From: a virus | Direction: 5' to 3' (one strand) | Virus record (IMG/VR): IMGVR_UViG_3300043410_001708 | Coordinates: 42,270-106,269 of that record | Length of the DNA: 64,000 bases | Part shown: positions 4,192 to 11,728 of the stretch, in pieces | How the letters are laid out: each line of letters opens with the position of its first letter | Numbering within the stretch: the first letter of the stretch is position 1 | Translations under genes and position numbers: made by a program | The notes under the pieces: model-generated | What the model was told of the DNA's origin: nothing | Seen by the model: only the letters and a program-made list of their open reading frames with translations | Databases searched by the model: none

Positions 4192-4264
4192 TGGTTGCGG
4201 GTCACGGAGTTGCACCGGAACTGAGGATTATGAGCCCACTGTGATACTATTTCACCAACCCGCT
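4192..4264 (-). tRNA. tRNA-Met(CAT), initiator-like
   Basis: Cloverleaf, loop CTCATAA, 1:72 mismatch, GGG in anticodon stem, encoded CCA; atypical T loop TGCAACT. Confidence 0.75.
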
Positions 4265-4785: not shown

Positions 4786-4859
4786 TGGAGCGGGATATCA
4801 GAATCGAACTGATGACGAAAGATTGGAAATCTCTAGTTTTGCCATTAAACTAATCCCGC
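4786..4859 (-). tRNA. tRNA-Gly(TCC)
   Basis: Anticodon arm AGAGA-TTTCCAA-TCTTT, TTCGATT T loop, CCA. Confidence 0.92.
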
Positions 4860-4935
4860 ATATAACTATATATGCATCATTTTAAAACACACATAATGCA
4901 TTTTAAAATGAGGACTCTTGCGAGTCCCCATACCA

Positions 4936-6363
4936 TCACAATACTTTGTAACGGTCATCCATGATGGTTTTAAGCATCACAGATTCTGGTGTAAAGGTTT
5001 CTAAGTCACCCGCCAACAGTGGTTTTACGACTGCTGGTGAGAAACCAGATACCAATGCAGTACCAGAAGTGTCGAACTTTACTGGAGCGTTGCCGTATGC
5101 GGCATTCAAGTTCCAGAATACAACCTTTGGCAAAGTGTATCCTGCTTCTTTGTACTTACGTGCAATCATCTGCATAGCAGAGTCATCATGTCTAACGCAA
5201 GCGTTAAATTGCATGTCTGACAGAATCAATACCATCGCTGGCATTTCTTCTTGTGGCACGCCACCTTTTACTGCTACATCAAGGATTTTTGCAAATGCCT
5301 TGTGTAGGTCGGTAGACATACCCCAATCAGATTTAACCATTTGGTCAATCTTTTGATTGATGTTACCTTTCAAGTGCAACAATTCTGGATTGGTAGAGAA
5401 AGTTAGGAAGGTGTCCTTGAACTTGCCTTCATTCTTATCTGCCAAGTATAGTCCCAAAGAGACTGCTACTTCCAAACAGGTTAGACCTGATTTGGAACCA
5501 TAACCACCTGCAGCGCAGGTCATTGAACCAGAAACATCCACCAAAGGTAGAATGTTTGCATCGCCAACAAAGTTAGGCAAAGCCTCCCATTGTTTTTGCA
5601 CCAAGTCCAATTCGGTCTTGTCGAATTTCATGTAACCACCGATACGGCCTTTCAGCACATCGTATGGGAACACAGCACCTGCATTAACCTTAACTTCTGG
5701 ATTATCACCCTTAACCAACGAAGCAACATATGCTGCATAAGTTGGAGTGTTACGGTTAAAAGCCTTCTTGTAACGGGATGCCGCTACGGAAGGTACGTGT
5801 GAGAAATTGATGGAATCCCAGTCTTTCGCACACATTTGAGTTTCAACCACTTTGGTCATTTCAACCAAAGACTTACGGTAAAACTTTGGGGACATACCAA
5901 AGAACTGACGGATTTCAGCCGCTAGTTTACCTTGGCGAGGAGTCCACTTTGCAGCCAATCCATTCTTCGCACGAAGCGCATCACCCAACATAGTGAATGC
6001 TGCTGACTTCATAACATCAGAATCGAATACAAAAATGTCGTCCCAACGGCCCAATTCAGGAACCTTTGTCAACAATGCTTTTGCGGCTTCTACGTCATTC
6101 TTTTCCAAATAACGCAAGATAGTACGGAACGATTCACGTTCACCGGCACCACCACGAGCATCACGTAACCAAGCAGCAACACGCAAAGCGAGTTCACGGT
6201 TTTCTGCCATTGCAGCTGCGAAAGCAGGCACAATGTTTTTGCCACGGGAAGCACCTGCATTGTAGAACAAATCTACAACTGCATTAGCAGTGGACTTACG
6301 AGCCTTCATACCGTTTGCGGTACGGGCATCTTGATTAACAACGGCATCTACAAAAGTTGACAT
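4936..6363 (-). CDS. Ro60/TROVE-like helical domain + vWA protein (DUF2828-type)
   Basis: N-terminal DLF, RDARGGAGER, GRWDD, AKWTPR motifs; C-terminal vWA MIDAS DVSGSM...STD...ILSDMQF...FWNL. Confidence 0.8.
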   Translation of the reverse strand: MSTFVDAVVNQDARTANGMKARKSTANAVVDLFYNAGASRGKNIVPAFAAAMAENRELALRVAAWLRDARGGAGERESFRTILRYLEKNDVEAAKALLTKVPELGRWDDIFVFDSDVMKSAAFTMLGDALRAKNGLAAKWTPRQGKLAAEIRQFFGMSPKFYRKSLVEMTKVVETQMCAKDWDSINFSHVPSVAASRYKKAFNRNTPTYAAYVASLVKGDNPEVKVNAGAVFPYDVLKGRIGGYMKFDKTELDLVQKQWEALPNFVGDANILPLVDVSGSMTCAAGGYGSKSGLTCLEVAVSLGLYLADKNEGKFKDTFLTFSTNPELLHLKGNINQKIDQMVKSDWGMSTDLHKAFAKILDVAVKGGVPQEEMPAMVLILSDMQFNACVRHDDSAMQMIARKYKEAGYTLPKVVFWNLNAAYGNAPVKFDTSGTALVSGFSPAVVKPLLAGDLETFTPESVMLKTIMDDRYKVL

Positions 6364-6384
6364 AACTTACTCCTCATAAAAAAA

Positions 6385-6504
6385 CAACAGAATACATTTT
6401 TTAGCGCACTACCAATTGTGCTATTCACGCCGAAGCGTAAAACAGGATTCGAACCTGTAACCTCTCCGTTATAAGCGGAAAAATTGTTTGCTGTGAGTAT
6501 TCTA
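6385..6504 (-). ncRNA. Y-RNA-like element E1 carrying a circularly permuted tRNA-Ile(UAU)
   Basis: Terminal stem AGAATAC/GTATTCT, ACAGCAA motif; inside, in order: anticodon arm, T arm, acceptor closed by UUCG, D arm. Confidence 0.8.
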
Positions 6505-6508
6505 AAAA

Positions 6509-6664
6509 CAACAGGTTAGCTTTCTACTTTTTGTTTACAGTGAGAAATCGAAACTCACCTTCGTTAGGACCATTTCAATAAACACCTTCAAAGGTCGAAA
6601 CCTCCAGTGTTTACCATAGTTACCTAACAGTTCAGTATTATTGAATAATGCTGTAACTAACCTA
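6509..6664 (-). ncRNA. Y-RNA-like element E2
   Basis: Terminal stem AGGTTAG/CTAACCT, ACAGCA motif, TGTTG tail; multi-hairpin interior with T-arm-like GTGAG-TTTCGATTT-CTCAC. Confidence 0.7.
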
Positions 6665-6692
6665 AAACCTTTTCAATCTTTCAATACTGTGT

Positions 6693-6744
6693 ATTGTAAC
6701 ACAAAAATTTGTTGTAGTCAAGCAGTATGTTGTAAACATACCAC
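6693..6744 (-). promoter_or_regulatory. Sigma70 promoter with upstream palindromic site, driving E2-E1-Ro-like gene
   Basis: TTGACT-17-TACAAT; GTTGT-N6-ACCAC at 6729-6744, 7 bp from the -35. Confidence 0.75.
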
Positions 6745-6750
6745 AATATT

Positions 6751-6824
6751 TGGTGCCCCATGACAGAATCGAACTGCCGTACCCGGATTACAAAACCGGT
6801 GTAATACCATTATACTAATAGGGC
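6751..6824 (-). tRNA. tRNA-Thr(TGT)
   Basis: Anticodon loop TTTGTAA, cloverleaf, CCA. Confidence 0.92.
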
Positions 6825-6832
6825 AAAAAACT

Positions 6833-6907
6833 TGGAGCGGGTAGTGGGAATCGAACCCACAACTAAACCTTGGCAAGGTCTTGTGTTACCACTAGCACCA
6901 TACCCGC
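6833..6907 (-). tRNA. tRNA-Gly(GCC)
   Basis: AGACC-TTGCCAA-GGTTT, CCA. Confidence 0.93.
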
Positions 6908-6916
6908 ATCATGTGT

Positions 6917-6945
6917 ATTATATATGCTTTACAAACAATTGTCAA
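6917..6945 (-). promoter_or_regulatory. Sigma70 promoter for tRNA-Gly(GCC)/Thr(TGT)
   Basis: TTGACA-17-TATAAT. Confidence 0.85.
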
Positions 6946-6965
6946 GCACATTTTTAAAAAATATT

Positions 6966-7049
6966 TGGTACGAGTAACCGGAGTCGAACCGGTACGCACA
7001 AGGCGGCAGATTTTAAGTCTGCTGGGTCTACCAATTCCCCCATACTCGC
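6966..7049 (-). tRNA. tRNA-Leu(TAA)
   Basis: GCAGA-CTTAAAA-TCTGC, long variable arm, CCA. Confidence 0.93.
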
Positions 7050-7050
7050 A

Positions 7051-7635
7051 TCACATGGCAGGTCCGTTTCCATTACGGAAACCGACCTCACCACCTTCTT
7101 CTTTGATTCGTTTCATAACATCTTCAAAAAGAATAGGACGAAAATCTGTTTGTTCAACACAAACACAATGATAACGAACATCTGGTGTGTCCAGTTCTTG
7201 ACCTCCGTTCCATGTCATCATCACACGACCTGTATGAAGGTGACCGTGAATGTTTGTTCCGAAACGACCAAGACTGGCGGGATGAATTGGAATATGTGAA
7301 AGAATCATTCCGTTCATTACATGATACGCACGAAGTTCACGGAAGTGTATTCTATATTCATCATCACGGAAGATATCGTGGTTACCACGAATAAGAACTT
7401 TATCACCGTTAAGTCTATGCATAATGCTAAGTGCTTTACGATTGATTACAACATCACCAAGATGATATACTTTATCAGTTGGCTTTACTGTTTCGTTCCA
7501 ACGCTTAACCATTTCTTCATCCATTTCATTTGGATCGGTCCATGGTCTAATCTTTTCACCTGTTATGGAGTCGGTGAATCTACACACACCAGCGTGACCA
7601 AAGTGTGTGTCACTTACTAAAAATACTGATGGCAT
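7051..7635 (-). CDS. Calcineurin-like metallophosphoesterase
   Basis: SDTHFGH, HLGD, GNHD, HGHLH motifs; start moved to MPSVFLVSD behind AGGAG. Confidence 0.9.
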   Translation of the reverse strand: MPSVFLVSDTHFGHAGVCRFTDSITGEKIRPWTDPNEMDEEMVKRWNETVKPTDKVYHLGDVVINRKALSIMHRLNGDKVLIRGNHDIFRDDEYRIHFRELRAYHVMNGMILSHIPIHPASLGRFGTNIHGHLHTGRVMMTWNGGQELDTPDVRYHCVCVEQTDFRPILFEDVMKRIKEEGGEVGFRNGNGPAM

Positions 7636-7653
7636 AATAAACTCCTGAAAAAA

Positions 7654-7728
7654 TGGCCCGGCGTGAGGGAATCGAACCCCCATTCGCACTTTAGAAGAAT
7701 GCTGTCCTATCCATTGAACGAACGCCAG
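7654..7728 (-). tRNA. tRNA-Arg(TCT)
   Basis: Loop CTTCTAA, cloverleaf, CCA. Confidence 0.9.
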
Positions 7729-7733
7729 AAAAA

Positions 7734-8174
7734 TCATACTCGGATGTATTCGTAATTAACTGTTTCTTCATTTTCTCTAAAAACAATAGCGCCGTTCTTC
7801 AAGTGAAAACGCTTTGCCATTTCAGTTTTTGGAGATAATGTCACAAATCTTTTTATGTATGGCATATTATTTTCTATGTGTGATACTGCATCAAATATAA
7901 GTGTTCCACCAGCACCTGGTGCATAACTCCATATTGTATAAAATACCGCAATCTCTGGATCGTTTACCTTTTCAAACAATTCAGATTCTTTTGTCGGAAC
8001 ATTTGTCTGATAACTTACGCATGTGATTGCTAATACTTTACCATTTGTATCCCGAAGAACAAAAATATCTTTGTTATTACCTACTCTTTCCGTAGTTGGA
8101 ATGTTAGGCCTGACAGGATCTTCATCCAATAAATTAAAAAAACTATCTGTGATGGATTTTATAATATGTAACAT
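7734..8174 (-). CDS. Small GNAT-fold protein resembling the malonyl-CoA decarboxylase catalytic domain
   Basis: AVFYTIWS, FVTLSP and RFHLKNGA recall the MCD motifs AVFYSIS, FxTLSP and RFHLxNGA. Confidence 0.6.
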   Translation of the reverse strand: MLHIIKSITDSFFNLLDEDPVRPNIPTTERVGNNKDIFVLRDTNGKVLAITCVSYQTNVPTKESELFEKVNDPEIAVFYTIWSYAPGAGGTLIFDAVSHIENNMPYIKRFVTLSPKTEMAKRFHLKNGAIVFRENEETVNYEYIRV

Positions 8175-8190
8175 GATAACTTAAATATAA

Positions 8191-8267
8191 TGGTGCCCCA
8201 GAGGAGACTCGAACTCCTAAAATTTGGTTTCTAAGACCAACACGTATACCAATTCCGTCACCGGGGC
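8191..8267 (-). tRNA. tRNA-Leu(TAG), short variable loop
   Basis: TTGGT-CTTAGAA-ACCAA, 77 nt, A73, CCA. Confidence 0.88.
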
Positions 8268-8280
8268 AATAAATACTTAT

Positions 8281-8505
8281 ATGATACCTTACGAACAAAG
8301 ACAAACAGTAAAACCACTTTATGAGTTATTCTCAAATGAAACATATGTGCCTCATGCTTATTATTGTATTGAATCTGATTTTATCGAATCATATGTTACT
8401 GAGATAAAATCTTTTAATGATGATGAAATATATATTCAACCTGAAAAAGAGTTTGTCTTAACAACATTAAAACAAGTTGGTGCTCCTACTAAGAATCGAA
8501 CTTAG
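8281..8505 (+). CDS. Hypothetical acidic protein, antisense within the tRNA array
   Basis: ATG at 8281 preceded by late-promoter-like ATAAATA; fills the gap between two tRNAs, 3' end overlaps tRNA-Thr(GGT). Confidence 0.45.
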   Translation: MIPYEQRQTVKPLYELFSNETYVPHAYYCIESDFIESYVTEIKSFNDDEIYIQPEKEFVLTTLKQVGAPTKNRT

Positions 8506-8551
8506 GATACATCCTTACCATGGATGTGGTATGCCATTTACCTATAAGAGC
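8478..8551 (-). tRNA. tRNA-Thr(GGT)
   Basis: CATCC-ATGGTAA-GGATG, CCA. Confidence 0.9.
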
Positions 8552-8556
8552 ATGAT

Positions 8557-8631
8557 TGGTGGGTCGTCAGAGAATCAAACTCTGTTCTTCCGGTTAAGAG
8601 CCGGTTGCTTCATCACTTAAGCTTACAACCC
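8557..8631 (-). tRNA. tRNA-Lys(CTT)
   Basis: CCGG-CTCTTAA-CCGG, CCA. Confidence 0.88.
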
Positions 8632-8634
8632 ATA

Positions 8635-8711
8635 TGGTACCCAAGGTGGGATTCGAGCCCACATAATCTTGCTTTTGAGACAAGCACGTATACCAATTCC
8701 GTCACTTGGGT
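8635..8711 (-). tRNA. tRNA-Leu(CAA), short variable loop
   Basis: CTTGT-CTCAAAA-GCAAG, 77 nt, same D arm as Leu(TAG), CCA. Confidence 0.88.
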
Positions 8712-8716
8712 ATATA

Positions 8717-8818
8717 CAACAGGATAGTTTTTTTACAGTGGGAATTGAACCCACAAGGTTTGCTTAGAAGGCAAATTGCGAACCATTCGCATGTGAATTT
8801 TTTGCTGAACCTATCCTA
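8717..8818 (-). ncRNA. Y-RNA-like element E3 carrying a tRNA-Arg(UCU) mimic
   Basis: Stem AGGATAG/CTATCCT, TCAGCAA; D-like arm, TTTGC-CTTCTAA-GCAAA, GTGGG-TTCAATT-CCCAC; no CCA. Confidence 0.8.
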
Positions 8819-8823
8819 AAACT

Positions 8824-8899
8824 TGGTGCTGCCTAGTAGAATCGAACTACTTTCCGAGGTTCTTCAGACCCCTGCTATGACCACATCAGCTAAAGCAGC
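8824..8899 (-). tRNA. tRNA-Phe(GAA)
   Basis: GGGGT-CTGAAGA-ACCTC, CCA. Confidence 0.92.
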
Positions 8900-8907
8900 A
8901 TATTGAA

Positions 8908-9074
8908 TTTGTAAGTATTGGGACCTCCCTCATTTCCCAACATTTTACCGGTATTTTCTGTGAAGCGGCCGACCGGTTAGAGGTACGTAGTAATAGTTGA
9001 TACTTGGCATCGGCAAAGCACTATCCTCATTCTTGTATGCCTACAAAAACTTTCTCAACATCTACACTTACAAA
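8908..9074 (-). ncRNA. Structured inter-tRNA RNA (unknown)
   Basis: 9-bp closing stem TTTGTAAGT/ACTTACAAA with internal stems GGCAT/ATGCC, ACCGGT/ACCGGT, TTGGGA/TCCCAA. Confidence 0.5.
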
Positions 9075-9077
9075 ACT

Positions 9078-9152
9078 TGGTACCTTGTGACGGGATCGAA
9101 CCGCCGACCTTCTCCTTGTAAGGGAGACACTCTACCGCTGAGTTAACAAGGC
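9078..9152 (-). tRNA. tRNA-Val(TAC)
   Basis: TCTCC-CTTACAA-GGAGA, CCA. Confidence 0.93.
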
Positions 9153-9165
9153 ATAAAATTTACTT

Positions 9166-9240
9166 TGGGGAGATATATGAGAATCGAACTCATGATAACG
9201 GAATCACAACCCGTGGTTTTGCCACTAAACTAATATCTCC
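9166..9240 (-). tRNA. tRNA-His(GTG)
   Basis: Loop TTGTGAT, G-1:C73, CCA. Confidence 0.92.
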
Positions 9241-9288
9241 CCAAAGTAAACTTTGGAATTTTTAACCGTGTTTATTCACGGGGGTCTG

Positions 9289-9777
9289 TTAGACCTGCAA
9301 AGCTTCTTGTTCTGCCAAGATTCTTTTCAATCTGTCAGCACAAAAACTTGCAGCTGGTGCGTCTGGTTTAACCATAGGTGTCATGTTACATGTACCCTTG
9401 ATATAACCAATCGCTTGTTGTACAACACATGAACTTCCGTACAAGTCATCTTTGTTTAAGTCCAAATGAACTTCAACATGGAAATCTTCTAATACATCAG
9501 CCAAGTCTTGGAACAATTCTGAAACCTTATACACTTCGGTCATTAACCGCATTGCAGGTTTACTTTTCTTATGGTCATAATCCAACTCACGTTGAACGAA
9601 ACCAAAAATCTTACAACCATGGCGGCCATCAATATGAACTACGACAGCCAAAGCATAGTCTGCATACCATACACCGTTTACACGGATACGTTCTGAGTCA
9701 GCACCCAAATATACTTTCGTATCTGGTCCTTGACTTGCAAGGAATTGCTTAACTTCTTGTATGTCGAACTTTTTCAT
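9289..9777 (-). CDS. RNase H-like YkuK-family protein
   Basis: VYLGADS, LMTEV, EVHLDLN, AASFCAD acidic motifs; start moved to MKKFDIQ. Confidence 0.75.
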   Translation of the reverse strand: MKKFDIQEVKQFLASQGPDTKVYLGADSERIRVNGVWYADYALAVVVHIDGRHGCKIFGFVQRELDYDHKKSKPAMRLMTEVYKVSELFQDLADVLEDFHVEVHLDLNKDDLYGSSCVVQQAIGYIKGTCNMTPMVKPDAPAASFCADRLKRILAEQEALQV

Positions 9778-9807
9778 ATCAATCACCTTTCTTTTTTTTA
9801 CTAACAC

Positions 9808-9881
9808 TGGCATCCCGACAGGGACTCGAACCCCGACCAACAGTTTTGGAGACTGGTATGCTGCCATTACACTATCGAGAT
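9808..9881 (-). tRNA. tRNA-Trp(CCA)
   Basis: CAGT-CTCCAAA-ACTG, G73, CCA. Confidence 0.92.
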
Positions 9882-9887
9882 ATAATA

Positions 9888-9951
9888 CAACAGGATAGAT
9901 TTTACTTTTCAAGTTACAAGTTTGAAGTATTTTATTGCTGTTACTATCCTA
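9888..9951 (-). ncRNA. Y-RNA-like element E4 (minimal)
   Basis: Stem AGGATAG/CTATCCT, ACAGCAA, single hairpin with anticodon-like loop CTTGTAA. Confidence 0.75.
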
Positions 9952-9955
9952 AAAA

Positions 9956-10029
9956 TGGTCCTCAGAACAAGAATCGAACTTGTGATGGCCGGTTATCAGC
10001 CGACTGTTATACCATTTAACTATCCGAGG
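9956..10029 (-). tRNA. tRNA-Ile(GAT)
   Basis: GTCGG-CTGATAA-CCGGC, CCA. Confidence 0.92.
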
Positions 10030-10033
10030 AATA

Positions 10034-10109
10034 TGGAGGGTCTTGAGGGATTCAAACCCCCGACCAATTGCTTCGTAGGCAACTACTCTGTTCACTGAGC
10101 TAAAGACCC
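10034..10109 (-). tRNA. tRNA-Arg(ACG)
   Basis: GTTGC-CTACGAA-GCAAT, CCA. Confidence 0.92.
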
Positions 10110-10115
10110 ATAATC

Positions 10116-10190
10116 TGGTGGTTCAGGTGAGAATCGAACTCACACAAGGCACCGTATGAAGATGCTGCACTGCCACTATGCTACTGAACC
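10116..10190 (-). tRNA. tRNA-Met(CAT), elongator-like
   Basis: GCATC-TTCATAC-GGTGC, fully paired acceptor, CCA. Confidence 0.85.
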
Positions 10191-10195
10191 AAATT

Positions 10196-10270
10196 TGGTG
10201 GACCGAGGGGGAATCGAACCCCCAACTGTGACTTGCAAGGCCACTGTGTTCCCAATTATACCATCAGCCC
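10196..10270 (-). tRNA. tRNA-Ala(TGC)
   Basis: GTGGC-CTTGCAA-GTCAC, G3:U70, CCA. Confidence 0.93.
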
Positions 10271-10326
10271 AAATTTGTTGTTGACAATTTATCTCATTAT
10301 ACGCCGTCAACAAAGGCGAGTATTAC

Positions 10327-10400
10327 TGGTCTCGGTGGCAAGAATCGAACTTGCGCCACATGCTCCCAAAGCACGGATGATACCATTTCACCACACCGAG
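10327..10400 (-). tRNA. tRNA-Pro(TGG)
   Basis: CGTGC-TTTGGGA-GCATG, CCA. Confidence 0.92.
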
Positions 10401-10406
10401 AAAATA

Positions 10407-10470
10407 CAACAGGATCGTTTTTGTCGCTAGACATCCAAAAGTTAGCTTGTTTATTGCTGAACCGATCCTA
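10407..10470 (-). ncRNA. Y-RNA-like element E5 (minimal)
   Basis: Stem AGGATCG/CGATCCT, TCAGCAA, TGTTG tail, small internal hairpin GCTA...TAGC. Confidence 0.75.
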
Positions 10471-10474
10471 AAAC

Positions 10475-10549
10475 TGGCTCCACAGGCAGGGATCGAACCT
10501 ACGACCAATTGATTAACAGTCAACTGCACTACCGCTGTGCTACTGTGGA
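10475..10549 (-). tRNA. tRNA-Asn(GTT)
   Basis: GTTGA-CTGTTAA-TCAAT, CCA. Confidence 0.93.
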
Positions 10550-10556
10550 ATATATC

Positions 10557-10631
10557 TGGCGGTCCCAAGGGGTAACGATCCCCTTCTTTATGCGTGACAG
10601 GCATACGTGCGTCCATGAACACTTTGAGACC
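10557..10631 (-). tRNA. tRNA-Asp(GTC)
   Basis: TATGC-CTGTCAC-GCATA, atypical T loop ATCGTTA, CCA. Confidence 0.88.
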
Positions 10632-11636: not shown

Positions 11637-11728
11637 TGGTACCAGCGGTGAGAATCGAACTCACTCAAGAACGCTAATCTGGCGCTAAAAGGTGTATAAG
11701 ACCTCTCTGACTACCAAGTCTCGCTGGC
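11637..11728 (-). tRNA. Non-canonical tRNA with TAT anticodon (Ile/AUA) and long variable arm
   Basis: Acceptor GCCAGCG/CGCTGGT-A-CCA, mini D arm GACT-TGGT-AGTC, loop CTTATAC, variable stem, normal T arm. Confidence 0.75.

What the first reader, a model, noticed from the sequence alone, without database searches (positions are those of the whole stretch)
4936..10470. Ro60/TROVE-like protein with a dispersed family of five covarying Y-like RNAs inside the tRNA array
Seen: five minus-strand elements share one frame. E1 TAGAATAC-TC-ACAGCAA...GTATTCTG-TTG (6385-6504); E2 TAGGTTAG-TT-ACAGCAT...CTAACCTG-TTG (6509-6664); E3 TAGGATAG-GT-TCAGCAA...CTATCCTG-TTG (8717-8818); E4 TAGGATAG-TA-ACAGCAA...CTATCCTG-TTG (9888-9951); E5 TAGGATCG-GT-TCAGCAA...CGATCCTG-TTG (10407-10470). 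Four stem positions change with exact compensation, CAGCA and TGTTG are invariant (and can pair with one G:U), and the interiors are unrelated. E1 and E2 sit in tandem between a promoter and the Ro-like gene; E3-E5 sit between tRNAs and would be released by tRNA processing. Established: bacterial Ro60 (Rsr) binds a terminal stem of Y RNAs, and YrlA RNAs carry a tRNA-like module. Inference: this is a phage RNP system with a constant protein-binding handle and swappable tRNA-mimic cargo. The handle differs from the canonical Y-RNA GNCGA motif.
Basis: partly seen in the sequence, partly recalled or inferred. Interest (0 to 1): 0.9.

Follow-up and report, generated by a model that had tools for sequence, protein, structure and literature searches.

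The report
Phage Ro60-like protein's partner RNAs
This phage encodes a ring-shaped Ro60-like RNA-binding protein and five small RNAs that share one conserved "handle" but carry different tRNA-like bodies. The same protein-RNA pairing recurs in very different phages and bacteria, which gives a large protein family of unknown function a likely RNA partner.

Summary
Five minus-strand elements (E1-E5) share a 7-bp covarying closing stem, a 3-nt linker, CAGCAA, and a G after the 3' strand. There are no other copies in the window or in the 106-kb virus record.

The adjacent 475-aa protein (Pfam DUF2828 + DUF7788) folds as a full-length Ro60: Z 21.3 to Xenopus Ro60, and all top PDB matches are Ro60s.

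The handle travels with this gene, always on the gene's strand and usually just upstream. I found it in:
- about 80 close IMG/VR relatives;
- cyanophage, Aeromonas, Vibrio, Listeria, FelixO1-like and mycobacteriophage genomes;
- 63 of 80 bacterial or archaeal MAG contigs.

T4-like and T5-like tRNA arrays without the gene lack it.

Mid-size members score below threshold on Rfam YrlA. Short members often carry anticodon-stem-loop mimics.

Best reading (0.7): these are Y-RNA-like partners of a divergent Ro60 paralogue, with a constant handle and swappable tRNA-mimic cargo. Binding is inferred, not shown.

I found the family neither in Rfam 15 nor in the papers searched. It has the same build as the dictyostelid Class I RNAs.

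This scan has noted the same family before, on other DNA from at least 154 genomes.

The parts
4936..6363 (-). Gene for a 475-aa protein, Pfam DUF2828 (PF11443) + DUF7788 (PF25043). It has a Ro60-type fold: a helical-repeat ring plus a vWA domain with an intact MIDAS motif.
   Evidence: Pfam E 1e-20 and 7e-47. PHROG 850 'RNA-binding protein'. AF2 pLDDT 87.7. Top 12 Foldseek hits are all Ro60. VIA Z 21.3, rmsd 3.8 A over 406 residues to 2i91. D276, S278, S280, T351 and D383 are invariant.
6385..6504 (-). E1: handle RNA with a YrlA-like permuted tRNA body (anticodon-like hairpin CUUAUAA, T arm, closed acceptor-like stem, D arm). It ends 21 nt before the start codon.
   Evidence: fold z -3.7; YrlA 36.5 bits, positions 1-114 of 114, gathering score 69.
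6509..6664 (-). E2: handle RNA (CAGCAU variant) of a conserved long structured subclass.
   Evidence: fold z -3.6; 12 relatives, 36 pairs, 18 with changes on both sides.
6693..6721 (-). Sigma-70-like promoter (TTGACT, 17 nt, TG-TACAAT) upstream of E2, E1 and the gene.
   Evidence: 10 of 12 matches, extended -10. This is a pattern match only.
4901..4929 (-). Terminator-like hairpin after the stop codon: 8-bp stem, GCAA loop, then AUUUU.
   Evidence: Read from the sequence. The scan did not flag it because the T run is short.
8717..8818 (-). E3: handle RNA enclosing a D arm, an anticodon arm (CUUCUAA, UCU) and a T arm, with no acceptor stem or CCA. It lies between tRNA-Phe and tRNA-Leu.
   Evidence: tRNA model 35.8 bits at 8730-8798; ARAGORN does not call it; R1 37.9 bits.
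9888..9951 (-). E4: 64-nt handle RNA with an anticodon-arm-like hairpin (loop CUUGUAA), between tRNA-Ile and tRNA-Trp.
   Evidence: R1 63.4 bits, E 8e-13.
10407..10470 (-). E5: 64-nt handle RNA with a different conserved hairpin cargo, between tRNA-Asn and tRNA-Pro.
   Evidence: R1 56.7 bits, E 3e-11.

Best explanation
E1-E5 are small non-coding RNAs of one family. Each is closed by a 7-bp helix formed by its two ends, followed on the 5' side by three bases and the single-stranded motif CAGCAA, and on the 3' side by G(U). This handle is most likely the binding site for the neighbouring DUF2828/DUF7788 protein, a divergent paralogue of the Ro60 ring protein, so the RNAs would act as its Y RNAs. 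The body enclosed by the handle varies: a YrlA-like permuted tRNA (E1), a tRNA cloverleaf without an acceptor stem (E3), anticodon-arm-like or other hairpins (E4, E5), and a long structured module (E2). E2 and E1 are transcribed with the gene from their own promoter. E3-E5 would be cut out of the tRNA-array transcript when the flanking tRNAs are processed. By analogy with Ro60/Y RNA particles, the handle would hold the protein while the tRNA-like cargo engages tRNA-binding factors, either as a tether or gate for RNA decay or repair enzymes, or as a decoy for host tRNA-targeting nucleases. Shown here: the RNA family, its covariation, the protein's fold and the genomic coupling. Inferred: binding, processing and cargo function.
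For: Fold: Z 21.3 to Ro60 over 406 residues. The Thermus phage Ro60 also matches, and the next unrelated hits cover only the vWA domain at Z about 10.

RNA-level selection: 96% of 251 5' half-sites have their own complementary 7-mer plus G downstream, against 17% when stems are swapped, with 41 distinct stems. Six of 7 pairs show changes on both sides. Some pairs are G-U.

Strand and position: AG-type elements are 276:0 on the gene's strand, with 278 upstream and 10 downstream. About 79 oriented loci have one ending less than 150 nt before the start codon.

Specificity: 672 hits against 40 in reversed-sequence controls. CAGCAA scores 406 against 4.

Coupling that does not depend on how loci were picked: in a scan for the 5' half alone, 83 of 119 loci hold full elements. 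Of these, 35 hold the gene in the locus and 20 of 47 others hold it elsewhere in the contig. All 3 complete records have it. None of the 36 chance matches has the gene.

Breadth: cyanophage, Listeria, Aeromonas and Vibrio phages; FelixO1-like phage and mycobacteriophage; 63 of 80 MAG loci.

Negative controls: T4-like and T5-like tRNA arrays without the gene have none.

Kinship to Y RNAs: YrlA model hits of 36.5, 41.6, 35.1 and 32.4 bits fall on mid-size members in four clades, and the model's outer stem aligns with the handle stem.

Literature: relatives of this protein were noted to resemble Ro60/Rsr (by predicted structure for Bas63 gp130, by HHpred for CKA15_055) and were suspected of having nearby Y RNAs (PMC11482910, PMC12282133). 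A canonical phage Ro60 binds upstream Y-like RNAs (PMC12135203).
Against: No binding or expression data exist for this phage. The protein does not match Pfam TROVE, and the RNAs lack the GNCGAA/CGAA motif that canonical Ro60 proteins are thought to read, so the recognition mode cannot be transferred from known structures. No member reaches the YrlA gathering score. Elements in the gene's leader could also serve in cis. In dictyostelids, RNAs of the same build are reported to bind an RRM protein (PMC7919456), so a different reader of the handle is possible. The covariation alignment A2 was selected for pairing, so only searches are non-circular.
Confidence: 0.7

Rival explanations
1. The handle is read by another factor, such as a host or phage RNA-processing enzyme, an RRM-type protein as reported for dictyostelid Class I RNAs, or the DUF458/RNase H-like protein. 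The DUF2828 protein would share a pathway with these RNAs without binding the handle itself.
For: Class I RNAs of the same build bind Rnp1A/CIBP (PMC7919456). A DUF458 gene sits in this array and next to the DUF2828 gene in Vibrio phage phi-ST2. The handle lacks the canonical Ro60-binding motif.
Against: DUF2828 is the only gene found beside the handle in all clades examined. DUF458 is not annotated in the Listeria, FelixO1-like or mycobacteriophage loci. The Ro60 fold is a dedicated binder of stem-closed small RNAs.
Confidence: 0.15
2. The elements act mainly in cis. They would be leader structures through which the protein represses or stabilises its own mRNA, and the dispersed copies would only titrate it.
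For: An element ends less than 150 nt before the start codon in nearly every oriented locus, at a median of 29 nt for the nearest quartile. E1 ends 21 nt before the ATG.
Against: E3-E5 lie 2.4-4 kb away inside a tRNA array, flanked by tRNAs. In FelixO1-like phages and mycobacteriophage Douge the elements lie downstream of the gene. The conserved tRNA-like and anticodon-arm cargo is not needed for an operator.
Confidence: 0.1
3. The elements are decayed tRNA genes, processing spacers of the tRNA array, or DNA-level repeats, with no link to the protein.
For: They occupy tRNA-like slots in the array, and two carry tRNA-derived parts.
Against: The conserved handle is not a tRNA feature. It occurs next to DUF2828 genes in loci without tRNA arrays and is absent from T4-like and T5-like arrays. 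The strand bias is 276:0, and the G-U pairs and compensatory changes point to an RNA helix.
Confidence: 0.04

Closest known systems
Ro60 (Rsr, TROVE + vWA) with Y RNAs, especially bacterial and mycobacteriophage YrlA (Rfam RF02553; Chen et al. 2014, PMC4201824) and Thermus phage phiLo Ro60 with Yrl1/Yrl2 (PMC12135203)
   Same: The protein has the full-length Ro60 fold with a MIDAS vWA domain. The RNAs are closed by a helix of their 5' and 3' ends, with a conserved motif beside the 5' strand. They are encoded on the same strand within 4 kb of the gene. Their bodies are tRNA-like (E1 has the T arm, closed acceptor stem and D arm in the YrlA order). Several RNAs occur per gene.
   Different: The protein belongs to other Pfam families (DUF2828/DUF7788, with no TROVE match). 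The motif is N3-CAGCAA after a 7-bp stem rather than GNCGAAN0-1G. There is no second helix or bulge. No member reaches the YrlA gathering score. Many members are about 60 nt long and carry only an anticodon-arm-like hairpin. Copies are dispersed inside a tRNA array.
Class I RNAs of dictyostelid social amoebae (Rfam RF01414; PMC7919456; pattern GTTGRCCTTACAGCAA...GTCAACTG in PMC5054030)
   Same: These are RNAs of about 60 nt with a short covarying stem joining the ends. A conserved unpaired motif ending in CAGCAA sits next to the 5' strand. The 3' end is CUGU (here CCUGU), the interior is variable, and there are many copies per genome.
   Different: They are eukaryotic, with a DUSE promoter. 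The stem is described as 6 bp with a 4-nt spacer before CAGCAA. The reported binder is an RRM protein. The Rfam model gives only 15.3 bits on E1 and nothing on E4 or E5. I did not test whether dictyostelids encode a DUF2828 protein.
Bas63 gp130 and Listeria phage CKA15_055 (relatives of this protein)
   Same: CKA15_055 is a tblastn homologue of this protein (H32; 33% identity). Bas63 gp130 was not compared here; FelixO1-like phages matched at about 39-40%. Both were noted in the literature as Ro60-like and as sitting next to tRNA genes. Gp130 is reported to counter the Ppl defence system (PMC11482910). CKA15_055 was detected in purified virions (PMC12282133).
   Different: Those papers only guessed that nearby tRNA-like or abundant transcripts might be Y RNAs. 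No shared RNA motif was defined. Here three handle elements lie between a promoter and CKA15_055, and four lie in the tRNA array of a FelixO1-like phage.

Membership tests
Ro60 / TROVE protein family | Ring of helical repeats followed by a vWA domain, over the full length | tested here: met
   Foldseek top 12 hits are all Ro60, E 5e-10 to 3e-7. VIA Z 21.3, rmsd 3.8 A, 406 residues aligned.
Ro60 / TROVE protein family | Sequence match to the Pfam TROVE domain | tested here: not met
   Only PF11443 and PF25043 match at E <= 0.01. phmmer against PDB finds nothing. A family profile reaches Ro60 chains only at E 0.04-0.5, and only at the MIDAS segment.
Ro60 / TROVE protein family | MIDAS motif DxSxS...T...D in the vWA domain | tested here: met
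   D276, S278, S280, T351 and D383 are invariant in 48 diverse homologues.
Ro60 / TROVE protein family | Binds Y RNA on the outer surface and single-stranded RNA in the central hole | not testable with these tools
   No protein-RNA modelling or assay is available.
YrlA (Rfam RF02553) | Score at or above the gathering score (69 bits) | tested here: not met
   E1 scores 36.5 bits. E2, E4 and E5 have no hit. Relatives score 32-42 bits.
YrlA (Rfam RF02553) | tRNA-like domain with T arm, closed acceptor-like stem and D arm inside a terminal stem | tested here: met
   Met for E1 only (alignment). E3 has the ordinary cloverleaf order. E2, E4 and E5 lack the domain.
YrlA (Rfam RF02553) | GNCGAAN0-1G motif near the 5' end (PMC4201824) | tested here: not met
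   The conserved motif is CAGCAA, 3 nt after the stem.
YrlA (Rfam RF02553) | Encoded within 4 kb of the Ro60 gene on the same strand | tested here: met
   E1 lies 21 nt and E5 about 4.0 kb from the start codon. All are on the minus strand.
Dictyostelid Class I RNA (Rfam RF01414) | Short covarying stem joining the ends, adjacent conserved motif with C6, C9, A10, A11, and 3' end CUGU | tested here: met
   Compared with PMC7919456 and PMC5054030. Here the build is a 7-bp stem, N3, CAGCAA, then ...CCUGU.
Dictyostelid Class I RNA (Rfam RF01414) | Score at or above the gathering score (41.5 bits) | tested here: not met
   15.3 bits on E1. No hit at E <= 10 on E4 or E5.
tRNA | Cloverleaf with a 7-bp acceptor stem and a 3' discriminator/CCA end | tested here: not met
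   E3 passes the Rfam tRNA score (35.8 bits), but ARAGORN does not call it. Its acceptor stem is replaced by A-rich strands and the handle.

The most novel reading that the evidence does not exclude
One Ro60-fold protein carries a panel of interchangeable tRNA-part mimics (anticodon arms of Thr, Arg, Lys, Ile, Asn and Tyr type, and whole tRNA-like bodies). These would serve as decoys or sensors against host tRNA-targeting defences, or would steer tRNA repair and decay during infection. The same ancient protein-handle pairing may also underlie the unexplained Class I RNAs of social amoebae.
Probability: 0.2. Interest if true: 0.9.

Novelty: new variant of a known kind. Interest (0 to 1): 0.78.

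Why it matters
DUF2828/DUF7788 is a very large family: more than 6,000 cluster representatives match at E <= 0.001, and 701 sequenced phages carry it, including FelixO1-like, P100/A511-like and cluster L mycobacteriophages. It has no established function. One member is reported to counter a bacterial defence system.

A defined, conserved RNA partner motif turns the guess 'maybe there are Y RNAs nearby' into a testable RNP. It gives exact mutants for binding assays and exact coordinates for RNA sequencing, in phages that grow on laboratory strains.

It also extends the Ro60/Y RNA principle to a second protein lineage with a different recognition motif. It adds minimal anticodon-arm cargos, and it offers a candidate relative for the dictyostelid Class I RNAs.

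Tried and rejected
1. CAGCA:UGUUG pairing. In relatives the 3' tail reads GUUG, GUUA, GUUU, GUAA or GGU, and CAGCAA changes to CCGCAA or CUGCAA without compensation. With the closing stem formed, no spacer would remain between the two 3' strands, so the pairing is also sterically unlikely (my inference).

2. Rfam. No family reaches its gathering score on any element. At E <= 10 there is nothing on E2, E4 or E5.

3. Sequence searches of the protein against PDB and NCBIfam gave nothing.

4. DNA similarity of the region to sequenced phages gave only tRNA-sized matches.

5. RtcB and two RNA ligase families were not found in the 106-kb record. The record is only 63% complete, and the Rnl1 search rang in no control genome, so this says little.

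6. The covariance model R1, built from short members, recovers E3-E5 well. It recovers E1 and E2 only as partial hits (25, 15.5 and 10.9 bits), so my pattern descriptor was the more useful tool.

7. The three abundant transcripts of Listeria phage CKA15 might have served as expression evidence. However, the main one (CKA15_059-061) matches ROOL RNA, not the handle. I could not tell from the text whether the handle cluster is one of the other regions.

8. The protein atlas added only the same Pfam families.

9. The paper on Class I RNA pull-downs (Avesson 2011) is not in the library.

10. Complex prediction was not used, because it does not take RNA.


Full report
**The observation.** Reading 4800-10600 on the minus strand shows the five elements exactly as described.
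- A degenerate 5' pattern gives five exact hits, all on the minus strand, against 0.62 expected from shuffles.
- Each element has seven Watson-Crick pairs between its ends, plus a U-G pair outside them. Positions 3, 4, 6 and 7 of the stem differ among the five copies with exact compensation.
- E3 lies between tRNA-Phe and tRNA-Leu, E4 between tRNA-Ile and tRNA-Trp, and E5 between tRNA-Asn and tRNA-Pro. Each is 5-6 nt from its neighbours.
- E2 and E1 lie in tandem between a TTGACT-17-TACAAT site with an extended -10 (6721-6693) and the start codon at 6363. A hairpin with a short U run follows the stop codon.
- The 106-kb virus record holds only these five. A covariance model of the family finds no sixth copy in the window.

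**The protein.**
- The 475-aa product matches Pfam DUF7788 (E 7e-47) and DUF2828 (E 1e-20), and PHROG 850 'RNA-binding protein'. It does not match TROVE.
- Sequence search of PDB finds nothing. A profile of 48 diverse homologues touches Ro60 chains only at the DxSxS segment, at E 0.04-0.5.
- An AlphaFold2 model from that alignment is confident (pLDDT 87.7, pTM 0.87).
- The twelve best Foldseek matches are all Ro60 proteins: Xenopus, human, Deinococcus Rsr and Thermus phage phiLo (E 5e-10 to 3e-7).
- VIA-align gives Z 21.3, rmsd 3.8 A over 406 residues to Xenopus Ro60, and Z 16-17 to the phage Ro60. The best unrelated chains cover only the vWA domain at Z about 10.
- The MIDAS residues are invariant.
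- So the protein is Ro60-like by fold. By sequence it belongs to a separate family.

**The family is large.**
- 6,033 cluster representatives match at E <= 0.001.
- 701 sequenced phages carry it, annotated variously as 'hypothetical', 'RNA-binding', 'vWFA' or 'Ro-like RNA binding protein'.

**The RNA family in close relatives.**
- In 80 IMG/VR loci encoding relatives of 68-99% identity, a strict search found the same frame in 67 loci, always on the gene's strand and always with a 3-nt linker.
- The 112 unique copies give this consensus: UUU, AG(G/A)NNNN, NNN, CAGCAA, an A-rich interior end, the complementary strand ending in (C/U)CU, then GUUG.
- Lengths cluster near 60, 100, 120 and 155 nt.

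**Tests that do not assume pairing.**
- Of 251 sites of the form AG-N8-CAGCAA on the gene strand, 240 (96%) have their own complementary 7-mer plus G within 330 nt. With stems swapped between sites the figure is 17%. There are 41 distinct stems.
- On an alignment of 75 short members from many clades, six of the seven pairs show changes on both sides. That alignment was selected for pairing, so I rely and on the controls below.

**A general descriptor and its controls.**
- Relatives showed that the 3' tail and the second base of the motif vary. I therefore used this descriptor: 7-bp stem, 3 nt, C(A/C/U)GCAA, 20-300 nt, complementary strand, G.
- Over 2.06 Mb of fetched loci it gives 672 hits, against 40 in reversed, uncomplemented sequence.
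- Shifting the linker length, or dropping the G requirement, shows that linker 3 and the following G are real preferences. CAGCAA dominates at 406 hits against 4 in the control.
- In the 86 loci oriented by the gene, AG-type elements are 276 on the gene's strand and none opposite. 278 lie upstream, 10 downstream and one inside the gene.
- About 79 of those oriented loci have an element ending less than 150 nt before the start codon.

**Coupling to the gene.**
- A scan of IMG/VR for the 5' half alone returned 119 stretches. This scan is unbiased with respect to the gene.
- 83 of them hold full elements, and 35 of these have the gene within the fetched locus. All 129 elements in those 35 loci are on the gene's strand.
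- The other 36 stretches are chance matches. None of them has the gene.
- Of 47 further records with elements, 20 have the gene elsewhere on the contig, including all three records that are at least 90% complete. The rest are 3-62% fragments.

**Spread across distant phages.** The handle also lies beside distant homologues (30-48% identity).

| Phage | Elements found | Position |
|---|---|---|
| Synechococcus phage BUCT-ZZ01 | four | two just upstream of the gene |
| Listeria phage cka15 | three | between a promoter and CKA15_055 |
| Aeromonas phage LAh_8 | seven or eight | upstream |
| Vibrio phage phi-ST2 | one | next to tRNA genes |
| Shigella phage Sf14 (FelixO1-like) | four | in the tRNA array downstream of the gene |
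| Mycobacterium phage Douge | three | downstream of the gene |

- The Sf14 region is conserved in 236 phage records.
- Stem sequences differ by clade (AGGAU.., AGACC.., UGGAC.., AAGAC..). The 7-bp length, the 3-nt linker and CAGCAA stay the same.
- In one-genome-per-species prokaryote contigs, 63 of 80 loci with a DUF2828 homologue carry the handle on the gene's strand. There are 144 hits against 20 on the other strand, and 20 in reversed controls. The contigs include Akkermansia, Lachnospiraceae, Chloroflexota, Treponema and one archaeal MAG.
- Two phages with large tRNA arrays but no DUF2828 gene (one T4-like, one T5-like) have no CAGCAA element in 40 kb around their arrays.

**Relation to Y RNAs.**
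- E1 aligns to all 114 positions of Rfam YrlA at 36.5 bits (gathering score 69), with T arm, closed acceptor-like stem and D arm in the YrlA order.
- Mid-size members in an Akkermansia MAG score 41.6 and 35.1 bits, and one in phage Douge scores 32.4 bits.
- In those alignments the outer stem of YrlA falls on the handle stem. The region of the GNCGAA motif falls on the linker and CAGCAA.
- So the build matches YrlA, but the motif differs and the second helix is missing.
- E3 passes the Rfam tRNA score but has no acceptor stem.
- E2 belongs to a subclass whose long interior hairpin covaries (18 of 36 pairs).

**The cargo of short members.**
- Half of the 112 close relatives contain a hairpin with a 7-nt loop of the anticodon-loop or T-loop form, against 7% of shuffled interiors.
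- The commonest loops are CUUGUAA, CUUCUAA, CUUUUAA and CUUAUAA.
- These counts include related sequences. They show a tendency, not independent events.

**What is not supported.**
- CAGCA does not covary with the 3' tail.
- The two would also be awkward to pair once the closing stem is formed.
- I read CAGCAA as an unpaired recognition motif, as reported for the equivalent motif of Class I RNAs (PMC7919456).

**Literature.**
- YrlA RNAs next to TROVE-type Ro60 genes are known in 254 bacteria and 22 phages (PMC4201824).
- A Thermus phage Ro60 binds two upstream Y-like RNAs and host PNPase (PMC12135203).
- For the DUF2828 type, two papers noted Ro60 similarity and guessed at nearby Y RNAs. Bas63 gp130 is reported to counter Ppl (PMC11482910). 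CKA15_055 is reported in purified virions (PMC12282133). Neither paper defined an RNA motif.
- 'DUF2828' occurs in only five papers of the library, none about RNA.

**Class I RNAs.**
Dictyostelid Class I RNAs have a short covarying terminal stem, an adjacent 11-nt motif and a CUGU end (PMC7919456).
- The D. discoideum search pattern is GTTGRCCTTACAGCAA...GTCAACTG (PMC5054030). This is the same build with a spacer one base longer.
- The Rfam Class I model gives only 15.3 bits on E1 and nothing on E4 or E5.
- I did not test whether dictyostelids have a DUF2828 gene.

**Verdict.**
- The elements are real, structured, strand-specific RNAs tied to a Ro60-fold protein across much of the phage world.
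- The most likely mechanism is a Y-RNA-like particle with a constant handle and variable tRNA-mimic cargo.
- Binding, processing and the role of the cargo remain inferences.
- This scan has noted the same family before, on other DNA from at least 154 genomes. I reached the descriptor independently and then found that it agrees.

Noticed in passing
L083:4470-5021 (Listeria phage cka15, OR088597.1): The region annotated as small ORFs CKA15_059-061 matches Rfam ROOL RNA end to end at 90.1 bits (gathering score 99.1, E 7e-17). The published study reports these as by far the most abundant phage transcripts. They are therefore probably a ROOL RNA, not ORFs or Y RNAs.
   Followed up: partly
window 8560-8631 and 4195-4264, minus strand: Rfam's tRNA model finds two further tRNA-like genes that ARAGORN did not list (49.7 and 33.4 bits).
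   Followed up: no
window 8900-9077, minus strand: A spacer of about 180 nt between tRNA-Phe and tRNA-Val has no ORF of note, no handle and no Rfam match. It may be another non-coding RNA.
   Followed up: no
window 9289-9777, minus strand; L085:7487-8011: A DUF458 / RNase H-like gene (PF04308, PHROG 11311) sits inside the tRNA array here and directly follows the DUF2828 gene in Vibrio phage phi-ST2. It may belong to the same pathway.
   Followed up: no
G033:C1:30214-32564 and G043:C1:114278-116793 (IMG/VR records behind L189 and L210): The DUF2828 gene is in two pieces (residues about 7-139 and 134-474), about 1 kb apart on one strand. This suggests an intron or an inserted element.
   Followed up: no
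window 11637-11728, minus strand: ARAGORN calls a 92-nt tRNA-Ile(UAU) here. Rfam places it nearest the tRNA-Sec model, below threshold (32.6 bits). This is an unusually long tRNA-like gene.
   Followed up: no
window 7051-7737 and 7734-8174, minus strand: A metallophosphoesterase (PHROG 547) and a small protein with a weak malonyl-CoA decarboxylase C-terminal match are embedded in the tRNA array. A metallophosphoesterase also lies near the Ro-like gene in mycobacteriophage Douge (L086:1226-2233).
   Followed up: no
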